Source of the DNA: Tubulanus polymorphus
Lineage: Eukaryota > Animalia > Nemertea
Direction: 5' to 3'
Length of the DNA: 64,000 nucleotides
NCBI RefSeq assembly: GCF_964204645.1
Contig: NC_134035.1
Coordinates: forward strand, 13,114,451-13,178,450
Position numbers and translations under genes: made by a program. How positions within the stretch are numbered: the first letter of the stretch is position 1; each line of letters begins with the position of its first letter. The notes below the pieces were generated by a model. The model saw only the letters and a program-made list of their open reading frames with translations. It searched no databases and was not told the DNA's origin. Shown in pieces: positions 10,719 to 37,578 of this stretch.

Positions 10719-11276
10719 ATAGATGTAAACACTGAACTGATAGTTCCATTGTCTGAGAGCAACGATACGGACGAGAACCGTTCACTGCCATTATGGCCAC
10801 ACCTCAAGTATAGCTACGATATACAGCAGCACTTCCAGATTGAATCTAAACTTCGATTGTGTTCTGCAATGATTGTAACAAAGAATAATCAAATCTGGAA
10901 GGCATCACAAATCTGTACAGATTCTGATTTAGAAACCGTCTCAATAAATAACCCTTTTAAGTGAAATCCGATAAATTAAGATTGTCGCAACTAAGCCCTC
11001 CGAGAATGTCAAGATTGAAATATTGAAATCACGTTCTTTCTAGCTAAATAGAAATACGTTATTTAGACTTGTGTGAAAAATAGACACATGTAGGCCTACA
11101 TATATATTTCGCTGTTTTTGAAAATATTCTGATTTCAAACGGCAGCCGAGCCGAAATGTATGCCCCCGTTTTATGCGTTTTATAGGGGACTATTTGTATT
11201 TGAATATTTCTAAATTTTCAACAATTGGTTTCCGTTACTAAATTGGAGTTTTGGTTATTTGCAGAAATCGCTCGAA

Positions 11277-13152
11277 ATGTCACGATTTTCTTGGATTCTG
11301 TTTGGAGTGCTTTATTTTTCTTTAATCTTTTCTCATGCAATCGGCGCAGCGAACGGTGAGTATATTTGAATGCTTCTTAATCACATTCTTGATAATCAAT
11401 CCAATCCCTTAATTGGCCGGTGAATGAGAAATACACTTTGTATGTCCCTCATCGCAGATGATGGAGATGACTCGAATAGAATATGGGTGAAGAAGGTCCT
11501 AAGATCATCGACAAATTGCGATGCCTCTTTCGAGAACTGCGAAGAAATACAAAAGTCGAAGAATTATGACAAACCGAGAGAAAAAGATGACGATGGCCAG
11601 GATGAAAAATCGCCCGTTATTGCTGCTGACCTTCACCCCGCGGACAATGATAAGAAAACAGAAATAAACGTAGAAGTGAACGAAAAGAAACGAATTCAAA
11701 ACAAGGATGAAAAACCGTTGAATAAGAAACATTCGAGCGATCTGGAGATGGCGTATTTTCGAGAGACCCGCGAACACGCTGATGGAAAACCCGTAAAAGT
11801 AGAGGAAACTGACGAGGATAATTCATCATCTTCATCAACGAACGGAGAAAAATCCGAATTACTCGATCATCTTCGAGATGCCGTGGTGCAAGCGCTGAAA
11901 AGTAAAGTAAGCACCGCCGCAGAAGATGAAGTTAAGATTGAGCCACGTCGTCGAACCATCGATAAGAAACCTATCGCCTTACCGGTACGCATGAAGAGAA
12001 GTGTCACAACTCCGGCGCTGGCCGTCAAAGAACATCTTCAATACGATTACGTACAATATTTCAGTAAATCTGAAGATGGTAGGTTGTTATACGTGTTTTT
12101 TGGTGTTTTGAATTTTTTAACCGTCTCTGATTGAAAAAAAGGAATCCAGGTCTGCAGTTCTATAGGGCTCGGGTTGTCCTCCTCGAATACGTTAATACGT
12201 ACATTTTCAATTGATATGTAATCAATCTGAGAGATTTTAATAACTATACATATTTATGTTTCTATATTGAGAAAATTCATTCGATTAATTGAAAGCGTGG
12301 AACCACGTGGAACCAACGAAGTCGGATCCAAAATAGGACAATTTTAGAAATTTCGTACTGAATATAACAGCGAACTACTGGTTATTAAGAATAGATTTTC
12401 TGGTTCGTGAAATTCGTCACTGTTAAAAATGTTTCGATTTGTTCTTTTAGCGGTGCCGTGGACCGAACCGGAAGTGACGTCAGACTGTGTCGTTCAGGCG
12501 ATGTTAACTTCTAAATATCCGTTCTCCCCCAGTTGTACTGTAGAAGGTCTATTCGCCCCGAAACAATGTTACCTTCAGAGGTAAAGTTCTACGTTTTTTT
12601 CGAACATTTGTTAAACACGGTATGAATACGTAAGCTTTACCCTAGATCTCATGGGACCAATTAATCCTCCATTCCGGGGCAGGGATAGGTTTGGAATTGT
12701 CCACGGCCAGGCGCGGATCCAGGATTTTTTTCCAGGAGGGGCTTCATAAAGAATGTTAATGTTAAACCCCCGATTAAAATCTCTCATAGGGCCTATACGG
12801 CATATTGTTTCGCCAAACATAAGACGATATGGTACCGATTATGTGGTACTGTTCGCCCGCTTTGTCCCGAGTACATTCCTTCAAGAAAACGATTTAGAAA
12901 TATTTTTGAGCGGGGGTCACGACACCTGAAACCTCCCCTCTGGATCCGCGCCTGCACGAGGAACAGATTCCGGGGCACCAGATCATCAGAGGCAATCAAT
13001 TCCGGAATGACTTCTACTAATAGTTAGAAATACGTGTTGTATTTTGCAGATGTTGGTGCGTTTATAAAACCGGGCTGCCTCAAGTTACCGATGTAAATTC
13101 CAGGTATCATTACGGTACTACAGGCGTCAAACTCAGGTGTCCTGAACTATAG
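11277..13152 (+). CDS. Secreted thyroglobulin type-1 domain precursor (thyropin-like); exons 11277-11355, 11458-12078, 12451-12580, 13050-13152
   Basis: Signal peptide MSRFSWILFGVLYFSLIFSHAIGA, long charged spacer, RMKR site, then DC...PSCTVEGLFAPKQCYLQR-CWCVYKTG...C, the Tg1 QC...CWCV signature. Junctions are in phase. Confidence 0.85.
12708..12954. mobile_element. MITE with perfect 15-bp TIR
   Basis: CAGGCGCGGATCCAG...CTGGATCCGCGCCTG. Confidence 0.75.
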
Positions 13153-15649: not shown

Positions 15650-15790
15650 ATTATTTGTCGCGCCGTCGCTTCGCTGAGTCGTTCTAATTTTAGTAACGCG
15701 GAAGTAATTTCCTGGAAAACCCGGAAGTAATTGTCATTGAACACGTCAGTTTAGATTTCAGTTGATATCTCAAATTGAACGGGTTCGGGT
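15650..15790. promoter_or_regulatory. Putative bidirectional promoter (orphan gene / nucleobindin) with two ETS-type sites
   Basis: GCGGAAGT (15697) and CCGGAAGT (15721) between divergent genes; a non-coding first-exon donor GG|GTGAGT at about 15788. Confidence 0.55.
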
Positions 15791-16796: not shown

Positions 16797-19700
16797 ATGA
16801 ATTTGTTCAGTGTGATATTTATCATAACGGTGTATTGTTTACCGGGGATTATTTGTCCGCCTGTAATTCCACAGAAAGAAGAACCGAAGGAAGGCACAGC
16901 TGATGATGTAAGTTTTCATTCATTCATTACTCTCATGAATTGTTATTCTACCCCTGGGTCAGTTTTTGTGTAAAAAGTTTAAGCTTCAAACAGCTTGAGT
17001 TTGAATTGTTTTCCTCATTGAAAACATGAAGCAGAACAAAAGAAATTTAAACCTAAAATTTGCGAGTTAAAACTGACAGATCAGTTTAATTTTCAAGTTT
17101 TGATATTCAACCCGGGGGGGGGGGGGGGGGTAGGTGTGTACTGAGTTGGTTTGACCCTGTGGTATAATAGTTACACTGATCTTTACAACCAGCCTATGGA
17201 GAAAATGTTTGAAGACGACCCAGTTTTAAGAAATTTAACTCAGAGCCTGCGTGCTAACTGAAGTAAAAAGATGGACCTCAGTTCTTATCGATAGTTGCCA
17301 ATTTGGCCCAGGATCTGGTTCTACATGAAAAGAGAAAATGAACTATTTAAAATGTAACGAGTGAAACTGAACCAAAAATTGAGGAACTGAATCCAGCATC
17401 CAGATTTACATAAATATTTAACTCTCAAATTGATTTAATTTCTACATATATTCAGTTTTAACCTTATCTTAAATTGATTTAGTAGTTAATCCAGCCCAGG
17501 GGCCGGTTCCATAGTCGAGACTTAAGTCCCAAAAATGGTCTAAAGTAGATCGATTGGCTATAGATCTAAGATGAGCTAAGTCTGGGTTTCAGTCTAAGCA
17601 GTGACTATGAAACAGCTCCAGGTGTTTAGGGTGTAGTTGGTCATTTGGGTTTGAGCAATAAAATAAATTTTGATGATGCCTTCAGATTCATCAAGCGTTT
17701 GAAGGATATAGCCGTTATCTAAAAGAGATACAAACCGCCCTAGAATCAGACCCTGAGTTTAGGAAACGAATGGAAAACACAACGTACGAAAGTATCCAGG
17801 TAAAAATAACAGCAGAGTTGTTCAGGGTTGTTTTTCACATTTTATTTGTTGTTATTTTGGTACGGGAAACTGCATGCGTGAATTGGTGACCTTTTTTTAT
17901 GTATTTGTGGCTCAATGTGCTCGTAATGTCGGTGAACTTTTTGGCGGTAAATCTCTGAATTGTCACGAGAAAATTTAAACGACATTTGCAGACCTGTGAA
18001 AACTATCGATTACCAGCACGAAACTGAAACATTTCTGTTGGTTCGCATTCGGGGTTCTTGTTCGTTGTCTGTAACTTGTGGAACCCAAAAAAAGGAAAGG
18101 AGATATTGGGTTCTATGAGTGTTAAAAGTTTTAGACGAGCCTTGTTTAACTGGTATCGGTGAACGCGGGTAGTTGCTGCGTAGATTAACTGATTTTATTA
18201 GAAATTGCGAGCTTTCGCTTCTAGTGCTGCCCTCTATATAGTGGCTTCATCGGGTTAATGAATTGAAGTCAATGGAGATGCGAAGTAGTAGAACTATTAA
18301 GGGAGAGTAATCAGGGAATCGTGTCATTTTAGCAAAGCTATTTTCTGTCCTATTCTCGAAGAATGGTCGACGTCGGAAATCCGGAGCAGAACGAAAGAGT
18401 AACGAGCGAACTATCAGTTTGGAATACGAAAACTGGACTCGACTTTATTTTTACACATAGCTATTTATATAACACAGATTCAGACAGGTTGAGACATGGA
18501 AAATGATACAAAAACAAAGGTGCCGAGTAGTGACATGACAGTGAGACAAACAACAATTAACACATTCCGACACAGAAAAACAGTCTCAGAGGACAATGAG
18601 TAATAAGATGGAGACATAAAACAATAAAGAAATACGAAATATAGATGAAATATGTATAACAATTATCAGTGATATTTAGTGTTGTTAAATCATTCTCTCC
18701 CTGACTTTTAATCACAGTCCACACCTTCCTTTATTTCTCCAACTTTGTTCATTTACCTGATGAAGCTATTCTATGCGCTATTAGCAAAACCTTGTGATTT
18801 CTATTAAAGTCAATAACTACTAGTCTTCATGTTTATTGATACTCGATGTGAAACTGCGTTAGATTATACGGTATTTTTATGGCTCGTGTCATCGAGGTAA
18901 AACTGGGTTTTTTTCGCCGTCTTTTTTGCATGATATTCTGGAGAAGGTTTTCGTGTATTTTGTATTTGTAGGTGATGGGTATCGAATACGAACGTTATTT
19001 ACAAGAAGTATTCAGCGCTTTAGAAACCGACGAGAATTTCAAATCGAAAGTGACCGCCGAAAATTTCGAGGTACCACTAAAATCCGTATCGATCCGGACG
19101 GACGAATAAAAACAAAAATGATTATTCGCGTTTTATGTAAAGTTGCAGAAAAACCTAACAGGTGGCGCTAAAAACAACCGGGATAGAGAAGTTTTAAATG
19201 TGTTCGAATTTGCAGTATGACTCATTTTATCATTCGATCGCATAGACAAATTTCAATATCTCGTTTGATATATTTGATAGATTTACATTAAGGGATGATT
19301 ATGGTTTAGTCACATATATCACCCTGATATTACAAATACGTGGCGCAAATTGTCTGGAACACGTTGAACTATGAATATATGTAAAGAGGCTGTTCTGAAT
19401 GAGTATATTTACACGTCGTCCATATTTAACTAGTTGCTTTATTCAAACAGCTATAAAGGATTAAAAGCAGCAGATGGACTGTATTTTATATCCTCATCTA
19501 GGTTTCTATATAATACATGATATAAAATCCACAATCAATTTGAAGACTTTTGTACACATATGGATATATATATATATATATATATATGTATATGTATATG
19601 TATATGTATACGTATACGTATACGTATACGTATACGTATACGTATACGTATATGTATATTACATGACATAGTTTGTTATATTGCTATGCTGGATATTGAA

Positions 19701-22700
19701 AAATTTCATGATCTTTTAATTTTGATATCAATATTCATATATGAACCCACGCTCATCTTTTCATTCAAGCACAGGGTAGATACTCTTAGAAGTCGTCACA
19801 GTATAATTTCAACTGAAATCATCTCTATTTCTAAATCTCAATTTGTATTTCCATTTCGGATAAATCAAGTCATACTACCGAAGTTGTCACTATTTTTTTA
19901 GCCTAAATCTGTATTTCCATTTCAATTTACTAAGGGTAAGTTCTAATTATTGCTAGCTGGGAAAAATTTATCTGTGTTTAAAGAGCTTATTTTGAGTAAA
20001 TTCATAATGTGAATAAATAGATAATTTGACCACACAACACACACAACCCAAACTATCTGGTTCATTCATTAGATATTCATTGACAGTCATTGGGTTCAAT
20101 CATGTGTAATCAATCATAGACCACCAGCTGTACTGACTGACATTACTATAGTCAGCCCCTGACCATCTGTGACATCATAACTAGCCAGCCAATCAGAAAC
20201 CCTAACCCTAGGTCACCTGACTACCTGATTACCTGTGACATCATAACTCTAGCCAGCCAATCGGAAACCCTAACCCTAGGTCACCTGACTACCTGATTAC
20301 CTGTGACATCATAACTCTAGCCAGCCAATCAGAAACCCTAACCCTAGGTCACCTGACTACCTGTGACATCATAACTCTAGCCAGCCAATCAGAAACCCTA
20401 ACCCTAGGTCACCTGACTACCTGATTACCTGTGACATCATAACTCTAGCCAGCCAATCGGAAACCCTAACCCTAGGTCACCTGACTACCTGATTACCTGT
20501 GACATCATAACCCTAGCCAGCCAATCAGACAGTGCTATGACCAGATATATCATGTGACCAGTGGGAGGACCAGCTATCCTTGGCCCATGCAAATTGACTG
20601 AATTTACTTGTATTACCATAAAGGTAATCTGAATAATAGTGACTTCAGTAGGTCAGGTGACCGGTGATGTTTACACCCTATTATAGCCATATAATGAAGG
20701 TTTTCATGTCTAATGTTCACAAATGAATACGTTAAGACAAGCCTTTATCTGATACCCTTCAAATTAAATTTAATAATAATAATAATAATAAAAATAATCT
20801 TTTTGAGTATAGGCCTATAGCGCTGAACTATAAAAATAATCACCATGCATTACAACATTATTGTCATTTATTGTCAATTTGGTCATTTCTACGGGTATTT
20901 TTCCTGATTATCTTATGATTCTAAAAACACCCAACATTCACGTATTTATCTGTGGCTTCTGTTTATGTGCATGTTTTGTGAGGAAACACTGTTACAGTAT
21001 TGAATATAAACGTTTAATTGCTATGAAATATTTTCAGTCTATTCTCGATCTCGTGAGTATTTAACTGATCGCACGTTGCTTCTCATCAGTAGATTCCGCA
21101 GTTCCGAATGATCCACAGAGTTTTGGAGTTTAAAACTTGGCCCTGTTCCGTAGATTTCCGATGATAAATCCTTCCTGTATTTATAGAAATAAACAAAGCA
21201 ATGATTTAGTAGTAGTTTTGTACTTGAAAAGGACCTTTACAATTTACAATTAGAAATTTACAATTTTTAACCATTTTATCACCATATTTTCCATTTTCCA
21301 CATTTTGTGTTGGTCTGAAGAGAGCTTTAAAATTTTCAATTCGTATAATACTATACTATTGTATCGTCTGTCGTATTTCATCTAATTGTTGTGTTTTTCT
21401 CTGATGAATTACAGAAAGGTGATATAGCTCAACATCTGGAGTTCGTCAGTCACGAAGTTCGCACGAAACTCGACGAAATCAAACGAACAGAAATCAATCG
21501 ACTTCGTGAAATCGCTAAATATCAACTTCAATTAGTTAAAGGTAGGTTAAACAACCTCTTTTAAGAGGTCAGTGATAATCAGACATCAGTGATTATCTCT
21601 GAAAGCTCAAGGATAACCTATTTGAGTGGTCATGGATAACCAGAGGTTTTCAATAACCTACCGAGTGTATAAGGATAACCTATTGAGTGGTGAGGGATAA
21701 CCAGAGGTCAGTGATAATCTCTCTTGAGAGGTCAACTATCTGAGTGGTTAGAGGGAATTTCCCTGGTATGATCTCTTTGAGGGGATTCATATCCTCTGCT
21801 GGCTTAAAGATAACCACCCCGAGAGGTCAGGGATAACCTCCCCTAGGATAACCTCTCTGCATTGAGGTGAATCTACTCAAAATATACATTAATTTCATGT
21901 TTTCAAATAATTACGGTTATTTTCAATAGGTAAAAGGATTCCACAAAGGGGTCTCGCCGTAAGGTTTCAACATATGTTCGGACATATGGATATCTTCGGG
22001 GACACAGAATTCTTTAAACCAAGCGATTTAGCGAAATTAGCGCAGAAGGTTTGTCATCACGTCGGATTAGGGTTTTTTTTGTGTTCAGTACACGTTATCG
22101 GATGGGTCCGCATCACTAAAACGGTTAAAAATATCGGGTGTTTGTTGACACGAGGATATCAAGCGTTTAGTAGCAACGAGGTTTTGTATTTCAAAGCATG
22201 ATTTAATGTTTGCATGCATGTTAAAGGGTCGTAGTACGGAGGATGATACAGGATTCATGTTCTGGACCCAGTTCCGTAGTCTTCGGCAGGATTTCGGAAT
22301 CGAAATCGATGATACTAACTAATTTTGAATTTGTTGACTTCGAAATTGATTAAAACTGTGGAACCGGGTCTTGTATTTAAAAAAAACCTTCAGACAATAA
22401 ACGCAGAAGATCAATAATTACAATAATATTACAACAAGTTTATTTCAGAAGAATACAGGTGTGTACTACCATTGAACTTGTCGCCGAAAAAGATGGTTTT
22501 AAGTTAACCACTGGATAGTTGACATAGTGACATTTAAAAGTTTATTGTTACGATGATATTTATCCGCCGGTTCTATTTAACCAACCTTTGAGCAACTTCA
22601 GCCTCAGGGGCCGGTTCCATAGTGAGGGCTTAGACTTAAGACCAGTCTAAGACCAACTTAGTTCTATAACCAATCTAACAATTTAAGACCAGTCTTAAGA

Positions 22701-25700
22701 TTAAGACCACTTTTGTACTTAAGTCATGACTGTGCAACTGGCTCCAGAATTGTAAAGAATGATGATAATTATAGTTTTGCTTCGCTCAAGTGACCGCTGC
22801 TCGACGTCGTCACGTGACGATCTCTGAATAGTCCGAACGTTTGTAACTGTCGTTTGAACGCTGATCGGAAATCTTTACGGAATATTCCGTAGATGAGCGG
22901 GTTGGTAGCGCTCGCTGTGTGCTGAACGATCGTCGATACGGCGTTCAAATGACCGGGCACCGCGGTCACGTCCGCGTAGAATATCGCTTTGAACAGTTTC
23001 GTGAAACAGAACGGCGTCATACAGATGAAGAAGATGATGACGATGACGAGGAGACTGGTGATCGTTTTCGTCGCGTTCAGCGTCTGTTTAAATTGATGAT
23101 TCGCCGCGTCGTAGATTCGTGTTTTCAAACGTTTCGTTTCGCCGATTATTTTACTATACGTGAAAACGATGATCGCGCCGGGAATCAGGAAACACAACGC
23201 GTTCGCCACGACGACGTAAACGATGATTTGAACGATGTTGATGAACCAGTCGATCGCGCAGACCATCTCCCAGTAATCGTAGTGGATCCAGTTCATCCCC
23301 ATCGGTACGACGGCGAACGCCGATCCTTGAAACCACGTATACGCGATCATCATCACGACGTATTTCTTCTTGATGAGAACCACGTATCGTAGCGAATAAA
23401 CAATCGCGAAATAGCGATCGATTCCGATAAACGATAAAGTTAACATCGATACAATTATAAACAGATAGTTTAAAGCGCATTGTAGCTGACACGCGAACTG
23501 TCCGAATATCCAGCGGTCGGAGATTAACGCGATCGCCGACGGTAACATCACGAATATCGAATTCGATAAGTCGGTCACGGCCAGGTTGATGAGGAATAAA
23601 TTCGCGACTTGTGATTTGAGTTTAGGAGTTCGCGCGGTCGCTAGGATCACGGCTACGTTTCCTATAACGCTACATGTTATAATTAACGACAGCGCGAATG
23701 TATAGAGGGCGTTCTCGTAGGGCTCGCGATTTATTGATTCAACAGTCCAATTTGTCATCGTTTCCATCCACTAGAAACTGTAATCAAAAAGTTGTGTTAA
23801 CCTGGTGTCGAGTCTGTTAAACATTTAGACAGATAGTACTAAAAGGGAGCATTTCAAAGTTGCTTTAATTAGAAACTTATTCTAATGGACACAAGTATCG
23901 AAATTTTGAGATGATCCCTAATAATCATCTTTATTTTGTACAAATAGTACAGACTAGGAGAGAAATCAAAGGGATAATACAAAAAATCAAAAGAAATTTT
24001 AAAAATTCACATTCACATGGAGAAAAACGTACAGTGGAACCTTATTACAACATAGAATGTTGTCCTTAGTAAAACAATTTCACTAATTTCTAATTTCATA
24101 CTGGATATAACGAACATATTTTCTGGTCCTGTGAAGTTTGTTCTCATGAGGTTCCACTGTATTTACAATCTGAATGAACTTAATTCGAAGGTTAAACTAG
24201 ATTTACTTACAGTTTACGAGCTCGCGTTACTAGAGTCAGTTGAAGCTTCATCTACACGATGAAGTTTCAAAGTACTATAATTCTACCTTTTAATCATAGC
24301 ATAATATTATTATTCGATAGAATGAATCGGTCATTCACACCAGGAACCTGCACTGACCAGTGTAGATAGTAATGTGACACTGTTAATTAGACAATAAACC
24401 TAGTTGACCAGTGGACCATTGTATAAATTATAATGATAATTTATATGATAGATACTGTATGATTTGCATAACATTGATTAAAAGGTAGATCGATTGCAAT
24501 ATGGAGGTTATTTCACTAAGACACTGTATGCTAAGGATTAGTGTCAGACCATATCTTAATCACTAAATGAATTGTGCAAAATTGTGATTAAAAGATAGAA
24601 TTCCTTGCAATTAATCACGGGCTCTATAACAAAGATTCCAAGACTAAATAAGGCTATCCCAGTGAGCTATTACAACCCTACAGAGTCCTTTAACAATAGC
24701 TAAAACAATTTTCAGTTATTGTATAACATTGACCGTAATTAAGAAATAATCCTTCTTTAGATTAACAGCAATTAACTAATTATTTCGCTTTGAAATATAT
24801 AGAAGTAACTAAGCTAGTAAAACCCTACATAGATTTGATGTATAAGATCCAACACTCGGAAAAGAAAAACAAGTTTGAAAAGGTTTCCTTGAGTTAATGC
24901 TTTATTTTCGACGTTTTGACTTTATCCTAATAGTCATCTTCGGGAATACAGTTTTATACAGTATTATAGATGATATTATAGAGTAGTATTCTGTTAAATA
25001 TGACTAATAGGATAAAGTAAAAAAAGTCGTAAATAAAGCATTAATTAAAGGAAATCTTTCAGACTTGTTTTTCTTTCAGAGTGCAGGATTTTGTAATATC
25101 ATTGAAATACAGACTCTCTGAGCAGAGCAGTCTGTAGGCTTACACTCTGACGTGGAGAATGGATAAAAAGTTTAAAACCAACTTTATACAAAGTTTGATA
25201 GATTAAAAGTAAATTTTATTTATCAAAGTTTGAAATCAACCATAGAGATCATCGTCGATCCTTAACTTATAACAGACTCAGAGTATTTCATCAATAGTAA
25301 ACCGAGTAATACTTACACTGCTGTCAGTTAAAGTTGTCGACTTGTAGTAAACTTTGAAGCTATATTCGTGAAGACATGCGATTGATATGACCTCATGCCT
25401 CGGTGGTCTGTTGGCGAGTGCGATTTCTCTCACCAGAAGATCCCATCCGATTCTCGTAAACATCTCATCGATTAACACGTATTGATGAGTTTCTGTCGTG
25501 CGATGATGGAACATGTGAAATATATCATTGTCTACGTCTTTGTGGGTGTAAAACGACTCGTGACATTTTCATTTACACCTTGTCTGTGTATGTTCTGATT
25601 GGATAGTTGTTATATTGAACTTTACCGAACTTTCATCGTACAAATTCATTACGTATTCCTCTGAAAATGTCCCATATACGGGTCGATTTAGTCGTGATTC

Positions 25701-28700
25701 TAGTCCAGTAAGGATTTAATTATGCCGTTGTTCTTAAGAGCTAGATCTAGGACACATTGTAAAACCGAGTTCAGGCTCAGATTCATTTGAATCCAGTTCC
25801 ACAGTGTTAAAACATTGAAAACGAACTGTCACTGGCTCCTGAGGCTCGGGAGGAAGATATTTAACAGGGTGCAGACTGTCTAATAGTTCACCCTTTCCAG
25901 CTCGGAGTTAGAGGTTTGACAGGGTAAAGATCTCGAGGGGTCCAGTTCCGCAGTTCTAAGATAGAGTTGACTCAATAAGTCAAATCTAAAGTCAACTGTG
26001 AAGCTGAGGTCGGTGATCCGTACTAAGAATGAGATATTGAGTTGGACCACTGTGAATGGACCTCGCGTTTCAATCAGTATATAGTCAGACTATACTGATT
26101 CCACAGTTCTAGACTCCGGACTATACTCGGAGTCTAAGCCTGAAATATGATTTTAATCTGTTTTATTTTTGACTTGCCCGAAGCCGGCGCGTCATTTCAT
26201 AATACCCTTCGCAATTCTCTCGACTTAAACTTTGAATCAAATCTATTTTTCTTTCATGAATTCCCTGTCGATTGATAAATAATAAAATCAGCGAACGGAA
26301 CCGAGTTGAATAAGATGAGGTATCCGATGCTCGAACATCTCGACCTCAAAAATCCTCATTCTTTCGAAATGAAAGATTTGGAAAAACTAGTCAAACAGGT
26401 TTGTTCATCGTTCGTGAGTCTGAAACTTGTTTTTTTTTTGTTCGTGTTTAACCTAACGATTCGTCACGTATCTAACCCCGATACTGAAACCTAGTGATTA
26501 AAATCTGATTTTATTTTCATTTTTATCGACCTCGCTCGAGCAAGTCATCGTTACTACGATAATCATAGCAGCGTTAATTAACCCTTTCCCAGTGATTATC
26601 TTCATAAGGCTGATGATTTGCTAAAGACATATTCGATCTCTCTCCTTGGAGTCTTATCCTTATCCAATCCTTACCTTTAAAGCATATAATTGCAGTAATA
26701 AACGCTTCGAGAAAATAATCTGCTTCAAAATTGAATGAGATTCGTGATTCGAATTTCACAGATTTCGCTAGTGAAGGGGTTAACACGTTGCTCGAGTAGA
26801 GGTAGATTGTTGTCGTTGTCGTGGTTTCCTCGTGTAAAATATTGACAGTTTATCTACCCGATTTGAATCCTGTTCACAACGCGCTCTCTCTCGCTCTGCT
26901 CTCTAGTTCCGAGGTCAGTCGTGAATATTTGAATGATTTAATCATTGTGATTACGATTGAACAGGTATTACGACCGGTTTGGGTAAAATGTGGAACATTA
27001 CGGAGGTAAGAGGCATGCCAGCGGTCATCCTCTCATCTCATCGGCGATTCGAACCTGACGGCATCGCGAGGCTCAACCTCGGCACGAAACCCTGTCTGAT
27101 TCTTCTGCGTACTCAGATACATATGGCACAAATCAGATTGCCCATTATGTAATTGCTGAGGCAAATTTCACTGATAGCTATAAATGGAATAACTAACGTC
27201 ATGGTTAAGCCGCGCATGTACCTGCGGACTCAGGCTATTCAGACAGGGTTTCATGGTTCCGGGGCAGAGTCTTACGATGTTATCGGGTTCGAATCCCCGC
27301 CGAGGAGCGATGATGTCCCAAAAGTAACCATCGATTTACTCATCTTGATGAAGGCATGACCTCTTTAACGACTGATCATGACATTTACGATGAAACTTTC
27401 AGCACAATCTCTACAGCGGGTGATCAGTGACACGGGAGATAACGCTGAATTTCTGAGTCAAATAACCACTTTACTGTGTGACTATCTCGAACAGTGCATG
27501 TGAACTTACTTTCAAAATCTGTGCACTTCTCTCAAATTAAGAGCATCTTACAAATCGAAACGTTAATGAAAATGATAATCGTGAACTGGAACCTTTTTTT
27601 GCATATGGTTCTCGTAAGTTAGGTTCTGAATCGTGGTCCAACACGCCCCCCGCCATCCCCCCCCAATCCCCACCCTCTGATTGATTGATGTCTTATATGT
27701 TATCATCCCCCCTTTTCGATGTTTTCTTTTCTTTTTTCTCGAAGAAAGCGGTGATAAACCGAAGAGAAATTTCGACGGAGTCTACCTCCACGTGGACGCT
27801 TCCAATCCAGACCAATTCGGACCGGATGATCTGAAAATGCTTATCACTCAGGTCTGAACTTAGCGCATGTAGCAAGCAGATTATCTCAGACAATTCTAAC
27901 GCCATCCCCCAATATTTCAGACAATATTCTTTTTCGTTTTATTTGCCTGAATTATTTTCAGCTTAGTTTTTATTTTTAGTTGAAAACTTTCTTCATAACT
28001 TTTATTCAAATCCGGTTTTGAAAAAGGAAATTCTCTGACAACTTTCGACTTTACTTAGAACTGCTTTTTCTAACTGCACATTGAAATCTTCGAAATTAGA
28101 AATTTCCATTAATTGTCACTAGTAAAGTCAAATCTATCCTTTAACCCTAAATCATTTATAAGATGAAAAAATAAGCCGAGCTTTGTTGATTTACCGATGA
28201 AGCAAAGCCTTCAAACTTTCTCGCATAATTGTCTGATACAAGTTGTCTAAAGATGCGTTAATAAGTTTTGATGGAAATCGTTGTTGCGAGCACTGAATGG
28301 ACCATTGCCTCGTAACTGTGTGAACAAATTCATTATAACTAAATCCATGATCCACAATCATCACGAACTTCACCATCTGTAGAACTAACCAAACTAGACT
28401 TCATCTTACTCAGTATTCATTGTCAGCAATGTTAAAACTGTTGGATCCAGATTCAAAGTTCTTAGGTTCAATTTAGCCTATGGACTATATTTTAATAGGT
28501 CTTCGATTACTTAGAGTCTAATTAGTTAGTTATTTCAAATTTGAAATCAGTGAAATTGAAATATTCTTCAGTCATCTGGTACCGAGAGTAACGAGGAGTT
28601 TAATGTATATTGTACTAAACAACTCTATTCTTGATTTATTTTCATGTCTGTCTTTTAATTTATTTTCACATTTACACATTTTCCGTTCTTTTCCTTCGTT

Positions 28701-31700
28701 TTTCTGCACGTTTTTCTCAACCCTGTCAGTTCCTCAGTTGTGAGTTATGTTTTTCTCATTTTATGCCGTTATAAAAATCTTCATAATTCTTACTTCTTAA
28801 GAGTGAATTCAAATTCACAACTGTGGAACTGATTCTTCGTTCGTTTGTTAATTTATTACCGGTGCATGCGCATTCACTTTATTAACGCTTTTTCAATAGA
28901 CATGTTTTGAATCTATCTCATGATTTAATGATACAGTAGACTTTGCTTGCCGTTCGCGGAACCGATGAATTCCTGCAGGGCAGTCTGGGCAGGGACGGGT
29001 TGTGTTATCATGATGACTTGGAATAAGAAAATCTGTAATATATTGTCCACGCAGGGCACGCGATAATCCAAGGTGATGGAGTCAGGGGTAAACACAGTCT
29101 ACTGTATTGTTATTGAATGCAATGAACTTTTGAAATGAAAATGAAATGAGAACTATAAACATGTGGGCAGGTAAGTATTCGTGATAAGCAATCGTTACCA
29201 CATTAAAACCTGCTTAATCTACCATAGATAAACAATGAGAAATCACATTCAAACATGAATAAACGGTAATGTCTGATTGAGATTGAGCAGGTTTTTATGA
29301 TGTTTAAAAACAGACCTGACTTAACAGAATCGGGCGTATTTTCAAATTAAACCGCCTTGCAAATTATGTCGAATTACTCCCATCAGAAAAGTTTTCACTG
29401 TTTTTTGGTCCCAATATGTATTTAAGTGTCATCATGAACATAATGATCATCACACTACAAATGCTTCAGGGAACTTCACTATCAATATCACTGGAAATAC
29501 CGAGATTGTCAGGTCTGAAAGAATAGTACGAACTACTGTCAGAGTCGGTTAAATTGCATGTTTGGTATCGAGAAAAACCATATTGTCGATACGAATATGA
29601 TATTTAAGAATTCTTACGACGGCGTGGTTGATGTTGATTGAGCGTTGTCATTGGACGAGATCATGGCGCTTCCTGCATATATTACTGACTCTGACTGTAT
29701 TCAAAATTGTATCATAGGGGTCATACATTTATTACGTATGCATTAGGGGAGGAAGGAGGGCTGTGATGCTTAATAGATATATGAAAAAATGTCCGATTTT
29801 GCGTACAGAGGGGGAGGTGGGTTGAAAAATTCAAATTTTATGCGTACGTAATAAATGAATGATCCCATATGTTACTGTTGGTTTCTGTGCACAAGTAAAA
29901 GTTTCACTGAAGGAAAACTACGAGAGTTGTGATGTTTCGATTCATTTGCTACGAGATATTTTAAAAACGGATTTATTTTCGAAGAGCAGTTGTGACAATA
30001 GCAACTTCGTTATTCTGTTAGAACCGCTTTTCGAAAAGAATCTGTTGTGAAAATGGCTCATCGCATTGGAGTCGAACGACAAAATCATCTATTAGTTTTT
30101 ACTTTTGTAATTGCCGGTTTATGTCTGTTAGATGTAACTGTTGTCGTGTATTAATGATACAGGCTACGGCTGATCTGGAGAAATATGATGAAGAACGCGC
30201 TGGAAAATTCAAAGACTACGAAATGCAGAAAGAGCACGAACGACGCAAAAAACTGAAAACGATGGACGAAGAACATCGAAAAAAGGCCGAGGCTGAATAT
30301 CAGGAATCTAAGAAAAAGCACCATCAACACGAGAAAGTTCATGAACCGGTAAGTGTTGAGTCAAGTTCCACAGTTTTGTGGGTTTGACTCCGGATCCTGA
30401 TCCACAGCCTTCACCCAACTGGACCCTGAGCTGACAAAATCTTATTACGGGCAGAGTCCATCCTCGCTCGCCTACACAAAGCTTAATTATCTAGCCAATC
30501 AGATGCATTGTATTGATGGAGCGAACCTGCCTGTAAACAACGCATCTGATTGGGTAGATATAAAGACTGGTGGCTACTGAGCGGCAACCAGTCCGCTCGA
30601 GAAATTTTCTGTGGTGTAATAAATAGAAGGAACTGCAGCCCGGGTTTCTGTTGGCATGACGCGATCTAACCCTGGCAAGCGAGTACTGTTGATTCTATAG
30701 CTATGAACTACTATTCAACCTATGATTTATATTTCAGGGATCACGAGCTCAATTGGAAGAAACATGGGAGAAAGAAGATCACATGGACAAAGATACATTC
30801 AACCCAAAAACTTTTTTCAAATACCACGGTATGGATAACACTAACTAACATTTGATTTGTTAGAATTTGAAATTACGATCGATTCTGAATTTTATCCGAT
30901 GATGTTTAGATACAAACGAGGATGGTGTCCTTGAACCTGATGAGGTGGAAGCATTATTCCAAGCTGAGGTAAATATATACAATGCAGCGCTCATGCAAGT
31001 ATCAATCTGTATTTTGTCTGGAATCACCCCTTTCAGACTGTCATCATTCAGCATCATGAAATGTCTTATGTCTGGTGTTAGTAGTTTGTTTTCAATTGAG
31101 AATGTCTCCAGTGAATTTCTGAACATATTAGAAGCATGGACGATCTCAAATTGGGAGAACGGTGTTCATCAAATATATATTAGGGCACAGAGTGCAGATT
31201 GATACTTGTATTGTAGTGAGGTAAGCCTTACTCGAGCAGGGCCAACTTGGAACTTTTGACTAGATTTGACTAAAATGAAATCATCTTTGTGACTCGCTAA
31301 CGTATTTTCCTATGCTTTTACTTAACCTCAACTGATTTCACAGTTTGTCCGAGTTTGACGAGCTTTATCGCAAATTATGCAATAAGAATTGACAGTATTA
31401 AAAACAAACGCACAATGTTATCTGATCATTTAACTTCAGCTCGATAAAGTTTATGAATCGAATCACACTGAAGACGATATGATGGAACGATATGAAGAGA
31501 TGAATCGCATGCGACAACACGTTTACAAAGACTACGACAAGAATAAAGATTCTATGATTTCATTGGAAGAATTCTTGGACGCCGTCAATTCGAATGCTGC
31601 CGCTAAAGATGAAGGATGGAAAGTAAGTGCATACGAGAGTATATTCCTATTAACCCTTTCAGTGCGTCTACACCGCAGTGCAGTGTATAAATCTGTGTTA

Positions 31701-33528
31701 GAATTGCTGTGGTTTCTACGGTTCGGTCTGTTTATCTTTAGTTTTGACGCATTGCTTCTATTTTAGATCCTGTGAGTTTATATGCTTTGTTACTTGTTTT
31801 TCTGGTCATTCCACCTGATGATGGCTGTTAGTCAACAGCCGAAACGTTGTGGTTTCATAATAATAAATTTGATCGTATAATCTTAAATTCGAAGTGTGGG
31901 ATTTCTTCATTTATTGAGAACAATTTGGCATTATGTACTAGAGTATCAATTTCCAACGGCTTTGTGTGGATTGTGTTACTAAATGAAGCTTTTCCTTTTC
32001 TTGAAAATGTAAATAATGGTTATTGATTATTGTTTAGGGCATTGATGATGAAGATCAGTTTACCGAAGACGAATTAGCAGATTGGGAGAAAAAACATCCT
32101 GACGATGATGAGGTAAGTTTCTTCCATCCTTAATATTATAATTCTAGTAATTCTAGGCCCGGTGTCATAGACTAAAACTGATGTATTCTCAGTGTTGAAG
32201 TTGATGAGCAATCCCACAACGATGATGGCTTAAGTTTATTTATCAGACGGTTTGGCAATTTATCGAAACAGCTGTTTCCCTGAAGATGGGATTTAGATAA
32301 ATCTTGAAGAAATTGTCAGATAGATAAACTTTGAAATATTAACATCGTGGGGTTGCTTGTCAACTTCTACACTGAGAATACATCAGTTTATCAACATTGT
32401 GGGTTTATTCATTTTCCCTAAGATAATCTAGAAACTATGGTAATAACTGACAAATTTCCAAATGTTTCCATCTATTTCGCACTCACATCTTTGGAACTTT
32501 TCTTCCGCACAGAACGCAGTTAAAGCTGACGGTGATAAACTCAAAGTTCAGCCTAAAGACGGCGCTGCTGCAAGTCAAAATAAAGATGGCGTCGTAAACA
32601 TGCAACAGGTACAGGATAAACAAACTGAACACGAAGCAGGAGCACAATATGATGAAAGTCGTACGGGAGAAGATCGTCGAAAACATCGAAAAAATATTCC
32701 GCGATTAATTCTTCCTTCAATGTTGAAAAAATACTCCAAAACACAACCTCAAAAAGAGTATCCAAACCCGAATGATCGACAGGACCGTTCCCAAACTGAC
32801 CATCCTGATTCTAGTTCAGACCCATCTTCCCGATCCAGTTCCCTCCATCAAAGTTCTCATGAAGAACACCCTAATCCTGAACACCATGAGGCCGTTGAAG
32901 GTGAACACCTCAAGGCCCAGGGTGAACACCAGGAGACCGGGAGTGAACACCACGAGGCCCAGGGTGAACACCATGTGGCCCAGGGTGAACACCACGAGGC
33001 CCAGGGTGAACACCACAAAGCCCAGGGTGAACACCACGAAGGCCAGGGTGAACACCATGAGGCCAAAGTTGAAGACCATGAATCCCAAGGTGAACATCAT
33101 GAGACTAAAAGTGAACACCACGAGGGCCAAACTATGCCGGGGGTAAGATTAGTGTTATGAATATTTGCCTGCTGCCCCCAGAATAGAGAATTTTTAGGAT
33201 CTTTTCAAGTTCAGGTTCAAGGTTTGAGTTTTAATTGTACCAATAAGGCAGATAGTTTGGGTACCACATTTAGTGCCCGCAGGATCTACAGATATTTAGC
33301 TTATAGACGTCCATATTACCTAAAGTCGCAGTTTCTAATAATAACATTCATTCAAAATTTGGTGAAAGTTTCTTTCATAGAATATTTCGGATTTTTCATA
33401 TTCATTCCGTTTTCATCTGTAGAATAGAATTGAAAAATATGAATAGTATTTAAATTCATTGAAAAAAGATTTTTCTGTAGTAGTTTTTGAGCAATTATTT
33501 TATTCATTTTATTTTTCAGGGTAAATAA
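16797..33528 (+). CDS. NUCB2: Nucleobindin (NUCB1/NUCB2 family); exons 16797-16907, [17686-17799 or 18972-19070], 21415-21541, [21930-22048, 26292-26398 or 27745-27851], 30163-30348, 30738-30828, 30910-30968, 31440-31622, 32038-32112, 32513-33142, 33520-33528
   Basis: Signal peptide; [17 protein letters not shown]; [25 protein letters not shown]; [14 protein letters not shown]; FNPKTFF; two EF-hands ([24 protein letters not shown]). All are nucleobindin hallmarks and the junctions are in phase. NUCB1 versus NUCB2 cannot be distinguished in an invertebrate. Confidence 0.93.
20165..20530. repeat. Minisatellite, about 68-bp unit, 5-6 copies, with CCCTAACCCTA and CCAAT motifs
   Basis: Repeated CTGTGACATCATAACTCTAGCCAGCCAATCAGAAACCCTAACCCTAGGTCACCTGACTACCTGATTAC. 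Confidence 0.9.
22769..23767 (-). CDS. Class A GPCR, biogenic-amine/GPR161-like, nested antisense in a nucleobindin intron
   Basis: GN in TM1, [34 protein letters not shown]; in-frame N-terminal NWT sequon; acceptor just upstream of the ATG; minus-strand AATAAA at about 22439-22444. Confidence 0.92.
   Translation of the reverse strand: METMTNWTVESINREPYENALYTFALSLIITCSVIGNVAVILATARTPKLKSQVANLFLINLAVTDLSNSIFVMLPSAIALISDRWIFGQFACQLQCALNYLFIIVSMLTLSFIGIDRYFAIVYSLRYVVLIKKKYVVMMIAYTWFQGSAFAVVPMGMNWIHYDYWEMVCAIDWFINIVQIIVYVVVANALCFLIPGAIIVFTYSKIIGETKRLKTRIYDAANHQFKQTLNATKTITSLLVIVIIFFICMTPFCFTKLFKAIFYADVTAVPGHLNAVSTIVQHTASATNPLIYGIFRKDFRSAFKRQLQTFGLFRDRHVTTSSSGHLSEAKL
24032..24159. mobile_element. 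Tc1/mariner (pogo-like) MITE
   Basis: TA-CAGTGGAACCT...AGGTTCCACTG-TA. Confidence 0.7.
28934..29104. mobile_element. Tc1/mariner-like MITE
   Basis: TA-CAGTAGACT...AGTCTACTG-TA. Confidence 0.65.
29717..29866. mobile_element. Harbinger-like MITE
   Basis: GGGGTCATACATTTATTACGTA...TACGTAATAAATGAATGATCCC imperfect TIR. Confidence 0.6.
31811..31852 (+). ncRNA. Minimal type I hammerhead ribozyme in a nucleobindin intron (Penelope pLTR-type)
   Basis: CCAC-CTGATGA-T-GGCTGTT-agtc-AACAGCC-GAAA-CG-TT-GTGG, then AATAAA. Confidence 0.8.
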
Positions 33529-35151: not shown

Positions 35152-36642
35152 AAGTACTGGCCACATATTTTCACTTATAATATTCTTACCGTAAAATTGC
35201 GTTATGTTTTCCTGGAAAAAATCATTGTATCAATTATACAATTATCATGGCCTAGTGTACATGTGATTTATGTAGTAAACTTTGAAGCCTACTCCGACAT
35301 GTCAGGCTGCGACTAGAATTTGAAAAACTGAATCATTTTCTGGCGTCTTTTTCTTGAATTCGGCTCGTATCGAATTGTTTTCTCAATAAATGAATACGAC
35401 TGATATTGTGTCTTTTATTCTTCTTAAATCAAAATTTCCATACATCGAAATATTATGTTACATTATGTATTTGAGTTACATTGTATTATGTATTTGAGTT
35501 ACATTGTATTATGTATACGACTTACATTGTATTTTGTATTCGAGTTACATTGTATTATGTATTTGAATTACATTGTTTTATGTATTTGAGTCTACTGTAT
35601 TAAGAAAAGAAATGTATTTTTCTATGTCTGGCGAGTTGAATATTCGTTCATGCGTGAAGAGAATGTGATGACAAGAAAATATGATAATAAAAATTACATC
35701 CATTTCATTATTTCTGCGGCTTGTTGTGAATCTTGAGTTTCTGCGGGGATTTTCCCGGAACAGTTTCACACATGACTCAGTGTTTACCTCGGAGTCGATT
35801 GCCTACGATTATCACAAGCTCCGGACAATAACGTTCTCCAATTTATATCGTGATAACGCGATCCATCCCTGCTCCAACTGTACCGGAATTCACATCTCTC
35901 TCGGGGACTTGTATTGATTGGTCTCGCGAGAGAGTTCTGAGTGATTTAAACCGACTAGTTGGTAATGCCAGAAAATCACAGGACCTCCTCACTCTTATAG
36001 GCGGTGGCCATTCCGGCCAGAATCAACCTTGTACGTTGAATTGATAAAACGCAAAAGTCTATCGTCAAAACGTATTACTGTTTTGATACGAATTCTCTGC
36101 TTTTGTCCATTTTTAAAAGATTTGTAAATAATAAAATGATGATAAAACTGGCGCCGGAATCTGTTGTTTCGTTATATACCAACATCGCCGCACATATCAT
36201 AATCATCTGGGCCCGGTTTCATAGACTGAGTATCAAAGTTATCCCTAGGGGTAAAACGTCAATTTGGGTGACAACCACCACAATAACAATGAGAAACCAT
36301 GGTTGTAACTGACAAATTTCAAAATGTTCCCTGGGACTATTTTTCTTCCACATCTATGAAACCCAGCCCTGAACTTTAACTTCTAGCTGCTATTGTGATA
36401 ACTGATTCGTTCAAAATTTACAAATTTAGAGAATTTCCGGAAAAGAAAATCACAATACGACACAATGCTAGAATTACTCGCATCGTGTGCATGTACGTAT
36501 CATTTGTGGTAAAAGCCTAACAATAATTTGATTTACATACCAGCATAGTCTATAGAACTCAGGATGATCAATTCCACGGTGAATTCAACGTCATACACCG
36601 ACATACGTTTGGCGTAGAACTGAATCCCGTAACTTATTCAGG

Positions 36643-37578
36643 ATGGTAACTTCAAGTTTAACATCACATGCCCACAGATGGGTTATGGCAGGACTTATTT
36701 TGCCTCCTCTTCTTATAGTGGGGGTCGTTTTAAACACGATTGTCATAATCGTATTTGTCAAAATGAAAACTAAAAACCGCTGCATCTATCTACTGAAATG
36801 TCTCGCCGTCGCTGATAACATGTTTTTAATAACGAAATTCATTCAGGACCCGGTGCGCTATTATGTTCACTACGCTTCGTACGGTGATATGATCAAATAT
36901 TTCAATGCAACTTGGGTCTTCCCTCACATATACATATGGATGACTATGTTTAACAACGGATTTCAAATGTTTCGTAACTATTTAACTGTAATTATTCAGT
37001 GCGAAAGATTATTTACGATGATTTTCATCTTCAAGTTTCAACGCAATATCATCCTCAATTTTATCGTTGTCTTCGCATGTATATTTTCAGTGGCAATGTG
37101 TTCCTACTACCCAATCACTATGCGGGTTATATTTCAACAACGATCCAGACTCGGTCCTCACTACAGAGCGTACTACTCACGTGACAGTATTTTTCGAATC
37201 ATGAACCGTTACGTGGACCCAATCTTCCGAATCGTGATACCGAATATAGTAGTTTTCGTAGCGAATATGGCACTAATTATTGTTTTACGAGTTAAAGCAA
37301 AAAAACGTAAATTTCTATCAGCGACTAGTAAACCACAATCAGAAAAACAGGGCGCGTCGAAAGCGACGAAAATGGTACTTACAATGAGTATCATATTCAC
37401 GATTTTGGAATTTCCCGGTTTACTCGGTAAAATGGGAAGATTCTTTCTTTTCCAACAGAAAATGAACACTATTTATCTTCTAACATCGGTGATTAATTCG
37501 TGCTTGAATCTAATTATTTATCTAATTGTGAATAAACAATTCAGAAAAACGATTTTTCAACTGTTGAAATTCAGGTAA
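36643..37578 (+). CDS. Intronless class A GPCR, peptide-receptor-like, related to the 9747-10718 receptor
   Basis: LAVAD, RNYLTVIIQCER, ILEFPG, NSCLNLIIYLIVNKQFRK; same motif set as the first receptor. Confidence 0.85.
   Translation: MVTSSLTSHAHRWVMAGLILPPLLIVGVVLNTIVIIVFVKMKTKNRCIYLLKCLAVADNMFLITKFIQDPVRYYVHYASYGDMIKYFNATWVFPHIYIWMTMFNNGFQMFRNYLTVIIQCERLFTMIFIFKFQRNIILNFIVVFACIFSVAMCSYYPITMRVIFQQRSRLGPHYRAYYSRDSIFRIMNRYVDPIFRIVIPNIVVFVANMALIIVLRVKAKKRKFLSATSKPQSEKQGASKATKMVLTMSIIFTILEFPGLLGKMGRFFLFQQKMNTIYLLTSVINSCLNLIIYLIVNKQFRKTIFQLLKFR

What the first reader, a model, noticed from the sequence alone, without database searches (positions are those of the whole stretch)
21930..27851. Three-way mutually exclusive exon cluster in nucleobindin
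Seen: three homologous exons that all start in phase 1 and end in phase 0: 21930-22048 (..[25 protein letters not shown]), 26292-26398 (..[24 protein letters not shown]) and 27745-27851 (..[24 protein letters not shown]). All match human NUCB2 HLNHLNPDKFESTDLDMLIKA. Lengths are 119, 107 and 107 nt, so including none or two shifts the frame. With the upstream pair this gives 2x3 = 6 isoforms. I know of no such combinatorial splicing in nucleobindins. The middle exon has a weak, A-rich acceptor.
Basis: partly seen in the sequence, partly recalled or inferred. Interest (0 to 1): 0.78.

Follow-up and report, generated by a model that had tools for sequence, protein, structure and literature searches.

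The report
Ribbon-worm nucleobindin with swappable exon sets
The single nucleobindin gene of a ribbon worm carries three duplicated versions of one exon (plus a short fourth candidate) and two versions of another; public annotation lists one-at-a-time isoforms, one RNA data set shows one route directly, and the choice is likely set by tissue-specific splicing factors, a known kind of splicing that the literature searches did not find described for this hormone-precursor family.

Summary
Observation confirmed. The window is the nucleobindin gene of the nemertean Tubulanus polymorphus. The three exons have the stated coordinates, lengths and phases, and every zero- or multi-exon combination gives an early stop. 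Direct RNA support is thin: contigs of one run show only exon 4 joined to 27745 and the route through upstream exon 3b. No docking/selector pairing beat shuffles. GCATG, the RBFOX motif, is the top pentamer of 1024 beside the six alternative exons (9 of 30 copies in 4.7% of the window). Its placing predicts coupled choices, not six equal isoforms, as in C. elegans unc-32. Annotated isoforms show either/or segments in other lophotrochozoan nucleobindins, including this exon in Owenia. The swapped parts match the nesfatin-1 active core and part of nesfatin-2, and they add or remove dibasic sites. New member of a known kind; the scan index held no earlier nucleobindin finding.

The parts
16797..16907 (+). 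Exon 2 coding part (start codon, signal peptide). Exon numbers are mine and count an inferred non-coding first exon near 15750-15789.
   Evidence: Matches all 7 RefSeq isoforms; joint 16907>18972 in run X1
17686..17799 (+). Alternative exon 3a, 114 nt, phase 0-0; aligns to the nesfatin-1 mid-segment; carries a KR site and an N-glycosylation sequon
   Evidence: RefSeq X1, X2, X3, X7; Pfam NUCB1_N E 1.2e-7; no joint among those shown (32 joints not shown)
17871..17876 (+). TGCATG 73 nt downstream of 3a, after a TTGTT-rich tract (predicted to enhance 3a)
18927..18932 (+). TGCATG 40 nt upstream of 3b (predicted to repress 3b)
18972..19070 (+). Alternative exon 3b, 99 nt, phase 0-0
   Evidence: RefSeq X4, X5, X6; both flanking joints seen in run X1 at contig depth 575 and 440
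21415..21541 (+). Constitutive exon 4, 127 nt, ends in phase 1; holds the KR site that aligns with the end of nesfatin-1
21930..22048 (+). Alternative exon 5a, 119 nt, most diverged copy; the join with exon 4 makes a G-K-R motif
   Evidence: RefSeq X1, X4; donor-anchored score; the one variant seen in it is synonymous; no RNA joint seen
22195..22220 (+). Three GCATG copies (two are TGCATG in tandem) 148-168 nt downstream of 5a (predicted to enhance 5a)
   Evidence: low variant density from 21863 to 22250 in run X2 (3 in 388 nt vs 10 in the next 281 nt, Fisher p=0.019, boundary chosen after seeing the data)
26292..26398 (+). Alternative exon 5b, 107 nt, closest to the family consensus; weak A-rich acceptor; no dibasic site, one N-glycosylation sequon
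   Evidence: RefSeq X3, X6; Pfam E 3e-7; the one listed variant is synonymous; no RNA joint seen
26965..27005 (+).
   Evidence: RefSeq X7 only, with 3a; shuffle p 0.11-0.62; GCATG at +8 and +209; no RNA joint seen
27745..27851 (+). Alternative exon 5c, 107 nt, strong pyrimidine tract; carries a KR site; TGCATG at -245 and GCATG at +14
   Evidence: RefSeq X2, X5; joint exon 4>5c (skips 6203 nt, GT..AG) at contig depth 434 in run X1, absent from X2, X3, X4
30163..30348 (+). Constitutive exon 6, phase 0; holds the RR site that aligns with the end of nesfatin-2
30738..33528 (+). Exons 7-12 (EF-hand half and short tail): 30738-30828, 30910-30968, 31440-31622, 32038-32112, 32513-32608, 33520-33528
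   Evidence: RefSeq match; joints 6>7>8>9>10 in run X1 at depth 906

Best explanation
This is a nucleobindin gene with two clusters of tandemly duplicated exons (3a/3b and 5a/5b/5c, with a possible short 5d), in which each mRNA likely takes one exon per cluster, the choice likely being set by tissue-specific splicing factors of the RBFOX kind. Shown: the exons, their phases, the early stop in every zero- or multi-exon form of cluster 5, the annotated single-exon isoforms, the route 2>3b>4>5c in one RNA run, and the motif enrichment. Inferred: without RBFOX, 5c (the strongest acceptor) and 3b are the default. With RBFOX, GCATG sites downstream of 3a and 5a raise those exons while sites upstream of 3b and 5c lower these, so 3a+5a and 3b+5c would be coupled. 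U/UG-rich tracts behind 3a, 5a and 5b may recruit a second factor (CELF or TIA1 type), which would let 5b be chosen in a third setting. Nonsense-mediated decay would remove mis-spliced cluster-5 products but cannot police the frame-neutral cluster 3. At the protein level exon 5 supplies the loop and the first ten residues of a long predicted helix, so exactly one copy is needed. The swaps change the surface and the predicted convertase and glycosylation sites of the nesfatin-1/2 half while leaving the calcium-binding half unchanged.
For: RefSeq X1-X7 map letter for letter onto single-exon choices. The model 3b+5d is absent, which suggests the set is not a blind enumeration (inference). Run X1 has 7 GT..AG joints at exon ends that runs X3 and X4 lack, including exon 4>5c over 5a, 5b and 5d. 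GCATG: 9 of the window's 30 plus-strand copies lie in the 3000 nt flanking the six alternative exons (p 6e-6, rank 1 of 1024 pentamers at 250 nt; rank 1-5 at all 7 flank sizes). With tandem copies collapsed, 8 of 29 (p 4e-5); 5a/b/c alone, 5 of 30 (p 6e-4); constitutive-exon flanks, 1 in 3033 nt. The reverse-strand word gives 3 of 27. RBFOX usually enhances from downstream and represses from upstream (PMC11874969, passages). In C. elegans 11 of 29 mutually exclusive clusters have UGCAUG, and 14 of 19 non-3n clusters rely partly on decay (PMC4165533, passages). Both variants seen inside cluster-5 exons are synonymous (n=2). The AlphaFold model of 3b+5c (mean pLDDT 87, pTM 0.77) puts exon 5 at residues 113-148, running into helix 139-181. 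F137, D141 and L145 are invariant in the 115-sequence alignment and present in 5a, 5b and 5c.
Against: No joint to or from 5a, 5b or 5d appears in the complete joint table (7 joints listed), and none for 3a among those shown. The same table also lacks 5c>6, so these contigs drop true junctions and the blank is uninformative. Only one run behaves as RNA, and it is not on record as RNA. That RefSeq 'X' isoforms rest on transcript-supported introns is recalled, not checked. 5b has no GCATG within 250 nt, so RBFOX alone cannot explain it. GCATG also lies just downstream of 5c (+14) and 5d (+8), which does not fit a clean on/off map. No related genome was available to test motif conservation. The U/UG-rich count (7 vs 0.6 expected) was made on three exons picked after looking.
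Confidence: 0.6

Rival explanations
1. The exons are real and functionally exclusive, but only passively: splice-site competition sets fixed ratios and nonsense-mediated decay removes the rest, with no tissue-specific regulator and no coupling between clusters.
For: All 12 non-single subsets of cluster 5 carry an early stop. Acceptor strength differs widely, and the exon with the best pyrimidine tract (5c, 95% pyrimidine) is the one seen in RNA. RefSeq lists all six combinations.
Against: It does not explain the GCATG enrichment. It also cannot keep the frame-neutral 3a/3b pair exclusive, yet none of the 7 RefSeq isoforms has both or neither.
Confidence: 0.2
2. Exclusivity is enforced by competing RNA pairings (one docking site, several selectors), as in Dscam or ATE1.
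For: The intervening introns are long (4243, 566, 739 nt), so steric blocking is unlikely. One element 90-110 nt behind 3b can pair with either the 3a downstream flank or the 3b upstream flank (-16.5 and -19.1 kcal/mol).
Against: None of 3 common-docking scans for cluster 5 exceeded 12 shuffles each. None of 15 flank pairs for cluster 3 was better than z -0.7 against 25 shuffles. The long inverted repeats found are local hairpins or A/T-rich pairs. The scans covered only 150-600 nt flanks and had no conservation filter, so a distant pairing is not excluded.
Confidence: 0.12
3. Only 5c (perhaps also 5b) is used at a meaningful level; 5a and 5d are decaying duplicates or low-level noise picked up by automated annotation.
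For: Only exon 4>5c is seen in RNA contigs, and an X1 contig runs unbroken through 5a at intron-like depth (the tool warns that contigs cannot show absence). 5a escapes Pfam and the HMM.
Against: 5a/b/c are only about 25-40% alike in their cores, yet all keep an open frame, splice sites, phase and the invariant F/D/L residues, which is hard to keep without selection. The variants seen are synonymous. The densest GCATG group sits behind 5a. Owenia has two annotated versions of the same segment.
Confidence: 0.08
4. For the short exon alone: 5d is not a fourth member of the cluster but the counterpart of the optional cassette that other lophotrochozoans insert between exons 4 and 5, or a noise exon.
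For: Optional 9-22 residue inserts occur at this junction in Lineus, Owenia and most mollusc sets. 5d sits just upstream of 5c and has internal GT sites that would give 12- or 18-nt frame-neutral forms. It is not detectably homologous to 5a/b/c and appears in only 1 of 7 RefSeq isoforms.
Against: RefSeq X7 joins the 41-nt form straight to exon 6 through a strong donor. The AlphaFold model of X7 keeps both long helices with a short turn (mean pLDDT 85, pTM 0.67, 60-64 around the junction).
Confidence: 0.35

Closest known systems
C. elegans unc-32 (V-ATPase a subunit), exons 4a-4c and 7a-7b (PMC3585155; abstract and passages read)
   Same: One three-way and one two-way mutually exclusive cluster, six possible isoforms; UGCAUG (RBFOX) and UG-rich (CELF, UNC-75) intronic elements direct the choice; only three of the six combinations predominate there.
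   Different: Unrelated gene and phylum; here the two-way cluster is upstream and only one 127-nt exon separates the clusters; factor binding and tissue pattern are untested here; a possible short fourth exon.
Tandem-duplicated mutually exclusive exons in general (human atlas, PMC5740500; passages)
   Same: Similar neighbouring exons in one reading frame, lengths not divisible by three (60% of human clusters), exon ends inside secondary structure.
   Different: The string NUCB does not occur in that paper's main text (supplements not checked). Exon 5d fails its length and similarity criteria.
Vertebrate NUCB1/NUCB2 and nesfatin-1/-2 (PMC2997068 passages; PMC9590162 and PMC11134965 abstracts; bioRxiv 10.1101/129783 passages)
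   Same: Signal peptide, NUCB1_N domain, EF hands; the KR and RR sites that bound nesfatin-1 and -2 align with exons 4 and 6; exon 3 aligns with the 24-53 active mid-segment and exon 5 lies inside nesfatin-2.
   Different: Vertebrates have two genes, invertebrates one (10.1101/129783). No swapped segment was seen in the 2 vertebrate isoform sets examined. Processing and hormone activity are untested in nemerteans. The C-terminal tail after the EF hands is short.
Annotated isoforms of other lophotrochozoan nucleobindins: Owenia fusiformis CAH1785387-91, Lineus longissimus XP_064634206-10, Mytilus spp., Littorina saxatilis
   Same: Either/or homologous segments whose ends match Tubulanus exon ends: exon-5 span in Owenia, exon-3 span in Lineus.
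   Different: Two versions, not three or four. Mytilus and Littorina swap the exon-7 span and Owenia also the exon-10 span. Seen at protein level only; orthology of copies unresolved.

Membership tests
Mutually exclusive exons from tandem duplication | Neighbouring internal exons with sequence similarity | tested here: met
   5a/5b/5c pairwise shuffle p 0.0002-0.017 and top ranks among 987 frames; 5d not met
Mutually exclusive exons from tandem duplication | Same reading frame and phases, similar length, no in-frame stop, GT-AG ends | tested here: met
   119/107/107 nt, phase 1 to 0; 5d keeps the phase but is 66-78 nt shorter
Mutually exclusive exons from tandem duplication | Each exon is joined to both flanking constitutive exons in RNA | tested here: inconclusive
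   Only 4>5c seen in contigs of one run; the rest rests on RefSeq models
Mutually exclusive exons from tandem duplication | No stable double-inclusion or all-skipping transcripts | tested here: inconclusive
   None among 7 RefSeq isoforms or 7 listed joints; all would carry early stops; contigs cannot show absence
RBFOX-regulated mutually exclusive exons (unc-32 type) | (U)GCAUG in flanking introns above chance | tested here: met
RBFOX-regulated mutually exclusive exons (unc-32 type) | Motif conserved in related species; factor binds and changes exon choice; tissue-specific use | not testable with these tools
   No related genome or tissue RNA reads available
Dscam-type docking/selector clusters | One site complementary to a selector beside each exon | tested here: not met
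   No better than shuffles in the flanks scanned; distant sites not scanned
Steric-hindrance clusters | Donor-to-branch-point distance under about 50 nt between alternative exons | tested here: not met
   Intervening introns 4243, 566, 739 and 1172 nt; AG-free zones at most 120 nt
U2/U12-incompatible clusters | Mixed U2 and U12 splice sites around the exons | tested here: not met
   All donors are GT with U2-like sequence; the U12 donor consensus used for comparison is recalled
Nucleobindin (NUCB1/NUCB2) | NUCB1_N domain followed by EF hands, with an N-terminal signal-like segment | tested here: met
   Pfam PF25434, PF00036, PF13499; PDB 1snl nucleobindin 1 E 6.7e-27; hydrophobic helix 2-18 in the model
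Nesfatin precursor | Convertase cleavage into nesfatin-1/-2/-3 and peptide activity | not testable with these tools
   Dibasic sites are conserved by alignment; cleavage not shown

The most novel reading that the evidence does not exclude
Splicing rewrites the processing code of a hormone precursor. One RBFOX switch selects 3a+5a, which puts a KR site inside the nesfatin-1 active core and a G-K-R amidation-plus-cleavage signal 18 residues after the nesfatin-1 site (G-K-R in 0 of 203 homologous exon-5 segments; KR in 9 of 178 exon-3 segments). Neurons would release a new short amidated peptide and a clipped nesfatin-1, while other tissues make an intact core. Lophotrochozoans, which have one nucleobindin gene, would have used repeated exon duplication (exons 3, 5, 7, 10 in different lineages) where vertebrates used gene duplication.
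Probability: 0.12. Interest if true: 0.7.

Novelty: new member of a known kind. Interest (0 to 1): 0.38.

Why it matters
The role of nesfatin-2 is stated as unknown in the vertebrate literature, and nesfatin-1 and -2 are reported to be structurally interdependent (PMC9590162, PMC11134965; abstracts). This gene offers natural variants that swap the nesfatin-1 core and a nesfatin-2 segment on a fixed background, so that interdependence can be tested directly. The recurrence of either/or segments in 7 of 17 lophotrochozoan isoform sets and 0 of 8 arthropod or vertebrate sets marks nucleobindin as a repeated target of exon duplication. The splicing mechanism itself is a known type.

Tried and rejected
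No RNA holder was listed on record; no whole genome is held for this window. Contigs of 5 runs were laid. X2, X3 and X4 show no exon joints and behave as DNA. X5 laid only on a repeat. X1 shows no joint for 5a, 5b, 5d or 5c>6; contigs show presence, not absence, so this is not used. An X1 contig over 5b has higher depth (37.8) than its neighbours (13.6, 24.5), but contig depth cannot rank parts of a gene, so it is not used either. Docking/selector pairing: null. Steric and U12 mechanisms: rejected. Extra hidden copies of any exon: none in six frames of the window. Orthology of duplicated copies across species: trees of 17 exon-5 and 14 exon-3 segments had no starred branch. 5a's best match is one Owenia copy (score 59, next 40), but that copy matches fly and fish better (72, 68), so neither an ancient shared duplication nor independent ones can be claimed. 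A search for short protein fragments spanning the junctions found 7 distant hits among 17 candidates, none from this species. Rfam over 15000-35500: 0 matches. A first splice enumeration had exon-3 and exon-6 ends off by one base and was replaced. Literature: 8 searches; none listed a paper on mutually exclusive exons in nucleobindin. PMC8557429 (nemertean neuropeptidomics) has no mention of nucleobindin or nesfatin in its main text. bioRxiv 10.1101/566836 discusses splice-site positions, with no alternative exons in the 12 of 16 passages shown. PMC8361300 was read as passages for background. Supplements were not read, and subscription journals are not in the library.


Full report
Identity. 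The exon at 30163-30348 is 100% identical to RefSeq 'nucleobindin-2-like' isoforms of Tubulanus polymorphus, a palaeonemertean ribbon worm. Seven isoforms, XP_074661007-013 (X1-X7), are on record. Spliced by coordinates, the window's exons reproduce all seven exactly. Exon numbers below are mine.

Observation. 5b and 5c hit Pfam NUCB1_N and an HMM built from 251 aligned homologues; 5a hits neither. In a donor-anchored scan of 987 candidate frames, 5a ranks directly after 5b and 5c, about five standard deviations above the mean. Its shuffle p-values against 5b and 5c are 0.003 and 0.017. All three keep the F, D and L residues that are invariant in a 115-sequence alignment. No other copy exists in the window.

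Two corrections. First, RefSeq X7 uses a fourth exon, 5d, 26965-27005, 41 nt with the same phases, not detectably homologous to the others. Second, the upstream pair (3a 17686-17799, 114 nt; 3b 18972-19070, 99 nt) is phase 0-0, so taking both or neither stays in frame. For cluster 5, the 4 single inclusions are full length and the other 12 of 16 subsets stop 596-927 nt before the last junction.

Expression. Five runs were listed, none on record as RNA. Run X1 has seven GT..AG joints at exon ends that X3 and X4 from the same sample lack: 2>3b, 3b>4, 4>5c, 6>7, 7>8, 8>9, 9>10 (15 of 47 joints shown). I therefore read X1 as RNA. A narrower, stricter lay of X1 and X2 listed 7 joints in full, of which only 4>5c is a splice. 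This shows directly that 5a, 5b and 5d can be skipped in favour of 5c, and 3a in favour of 3b. It does not show use of 5a, 5b, 5d or 3a. The 5c>6 joint is also missing, so the contigs drop true junctions. Use of the other exons rests on RefSeq (that such models need transcript support is recalled), on kept frames and residues despite deep divergence, and on two of two variants in these exons being synonymous.

Mechanism of exclusion. Steric blocking and U12 incompatibility do not fit. Docking/selector pairing did not beat shuffles in 3 scans for cluster 5 or in 15 flank pairs for cluster 3. The positive signal is GCATG. 9 of 30 plus-strand copies in the window lie within 250 nt of the six alternative exons (p 6e-6, rank 1 of 1024 pentamers; rank 1-5 over seven flank sizes). 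The count is 8 of 29 after collapsing tandem copies, against 1 copy in 3033 nt beside constitutive exons; the reverse-strand word gives 3 of 27. RBFOX usually activates from downstream and represses from upstream (PMC11874969, passages). The full TGCATG sites lie downstream of 3a, upstream of 3b, downstream of 5a (twice) and upstream of 5c. That predicts 3a+5a when RBFOX is high and 3b+5c when it is low; X1 shows the joints of the second route. Against a clean map: 5b has no site, and GCATG lies just behind 5c and 5d. TTGTT tracts follow 3a, 5a and 5b (7 vs 0.6 expected; picked after looking). The closest precedent is C. elegans unc-32, with a three-way and a two-way cluster directed by RBFOX and the CELF protein UNC-75, where three of six combinations predominate (PMC3585155, abstract and passages). 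In C. elegans, decay supports 14 of 19 non-3n clusters (PMC4165533, passages). Binding, tissue pattern and coupling are inferred here, not shown.

Protein consequences. In the AlphaFold model of 3b+5c, exon 5 is the loop between helix 83-114 and helix 139-181 plus the first ten residues of the second helix. The 5d isoform models as the same two helices with a short turn and lower pTM, 0.67 against 0.77. By alignment to P0055, exon 3 covers mature residues 24-53, the reported active segment of nesfatin-1 (PMC2997068, passages; mature start set by eye). Exon 5 lies between the conserved KR and RR sites, inside nesfatin-2. The exons differ in predicted sites: 3a has KR and a sequon, 3b neither; 5a has G-K-R, 5c KR, 5b and 5d a sequon only. 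Reading these as convertase, amidation and glycosylation signals rests on established knowledge; none is tested. No solved structure covers this half of the protein in the sequence search.

Other species. I compared 25 same-species isoform sets taken from 90% clusters (sampling is partial, e.g. 15 of 29 members listed for one cluster). Swapped homologous segments appear in 6 by rule: Tubulanus, Lineus (exon-3 span), Owenia (exon-5 and exon-10 spans), and three Mytilus species (exon-7 span). Littorina shows two near-identical exon-7 forms by inspection. That is 7 of 17 lophotrochozoan sets and 0 of 8 arthropod or vertebrate sets. A Dimorphilus model carries two exon-3-like segments in tandem. 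These are protein-level observations; I did not see those genomes. Whether the duplications are shared or independent is unresolved.

Verdict. A real cluster of tandem-duplicated, most likely mutually exclusive exons. It is already present in automated annotation, was not found described in eight literature searches, and is of a well-known mechanistic class. The added value is the missed fourth exon, the RBFOX-type motif map with a coupling prediction, the mapping onto nesfatin segments and processing sites, and recurrence across lophotrochozoans. New member of a known kind; interest 0.38. The scan's index returned no earlier finding near this place or on nucleobindin.

Noticed in passing
window 22769-23770 (-): Intronless rhodopsin-family GPCR reading frame (Pfam 7tm_1 E 3e-42) nested antisense inside the 5a-5b intron. 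12 of 13 listed variants are synonymous, so it is likely a functional gene; any effect of its transcription on exon choice is untested.
   Followed up: partly
window 32513-33142 (+): Exon 11 stays open past the RefSeq donor (32608) to a second donor at 33142. The 630-nt form is in frame with the last exon and would add a tail of His/Glu-rich repeats; it is not among the 7 RefSeq isoforms.
   Followed up: partly
window 21558-21859 (+): Degenerate direct repeats fill the intron just upstream of 5a; run X2 carries a 39-nt deletion there. Unexplained.
   Followed up: no
window 27654-27712 and 27899-27909 (+): C-rich CATCCCC elements flank exon 5c on both sides and rank among the top hexamers near the alternative exons; possible poly(C)-binding protein sites (recalled, untested).
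   Followed up: no
window 9747-10781 (-) and 36583-37578 (+): Two more intronless GPCR-like reading frames (Pfam 7tm_1 / 7TM_GPCR_Srw) flank the nucleobindin gene.
   Followed up: no
window 11266-13150 (+): A spliced gene upstream with a signal-like start and a C-W-C-V motif that recalls a thyroglobulin type-1 domain (read from the sequence; not tested).
   Followed up: no
proteins P0273, P0276, P0281, P0169 and others: An optional 9-22 residue insert at the exon 4/5 junction recurs in Lineus, Owenia and most mollusc nucleobindin isoform sets.
   Followed up: partly
protein P0201 (Dimorphilus gyrociliatus): One gene model holds two exon-3-like segments in tandem, possibly a mutually exclusive pair annotated as both included; an unnamed close relative (P0183) has only one.
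   Followed up: partly
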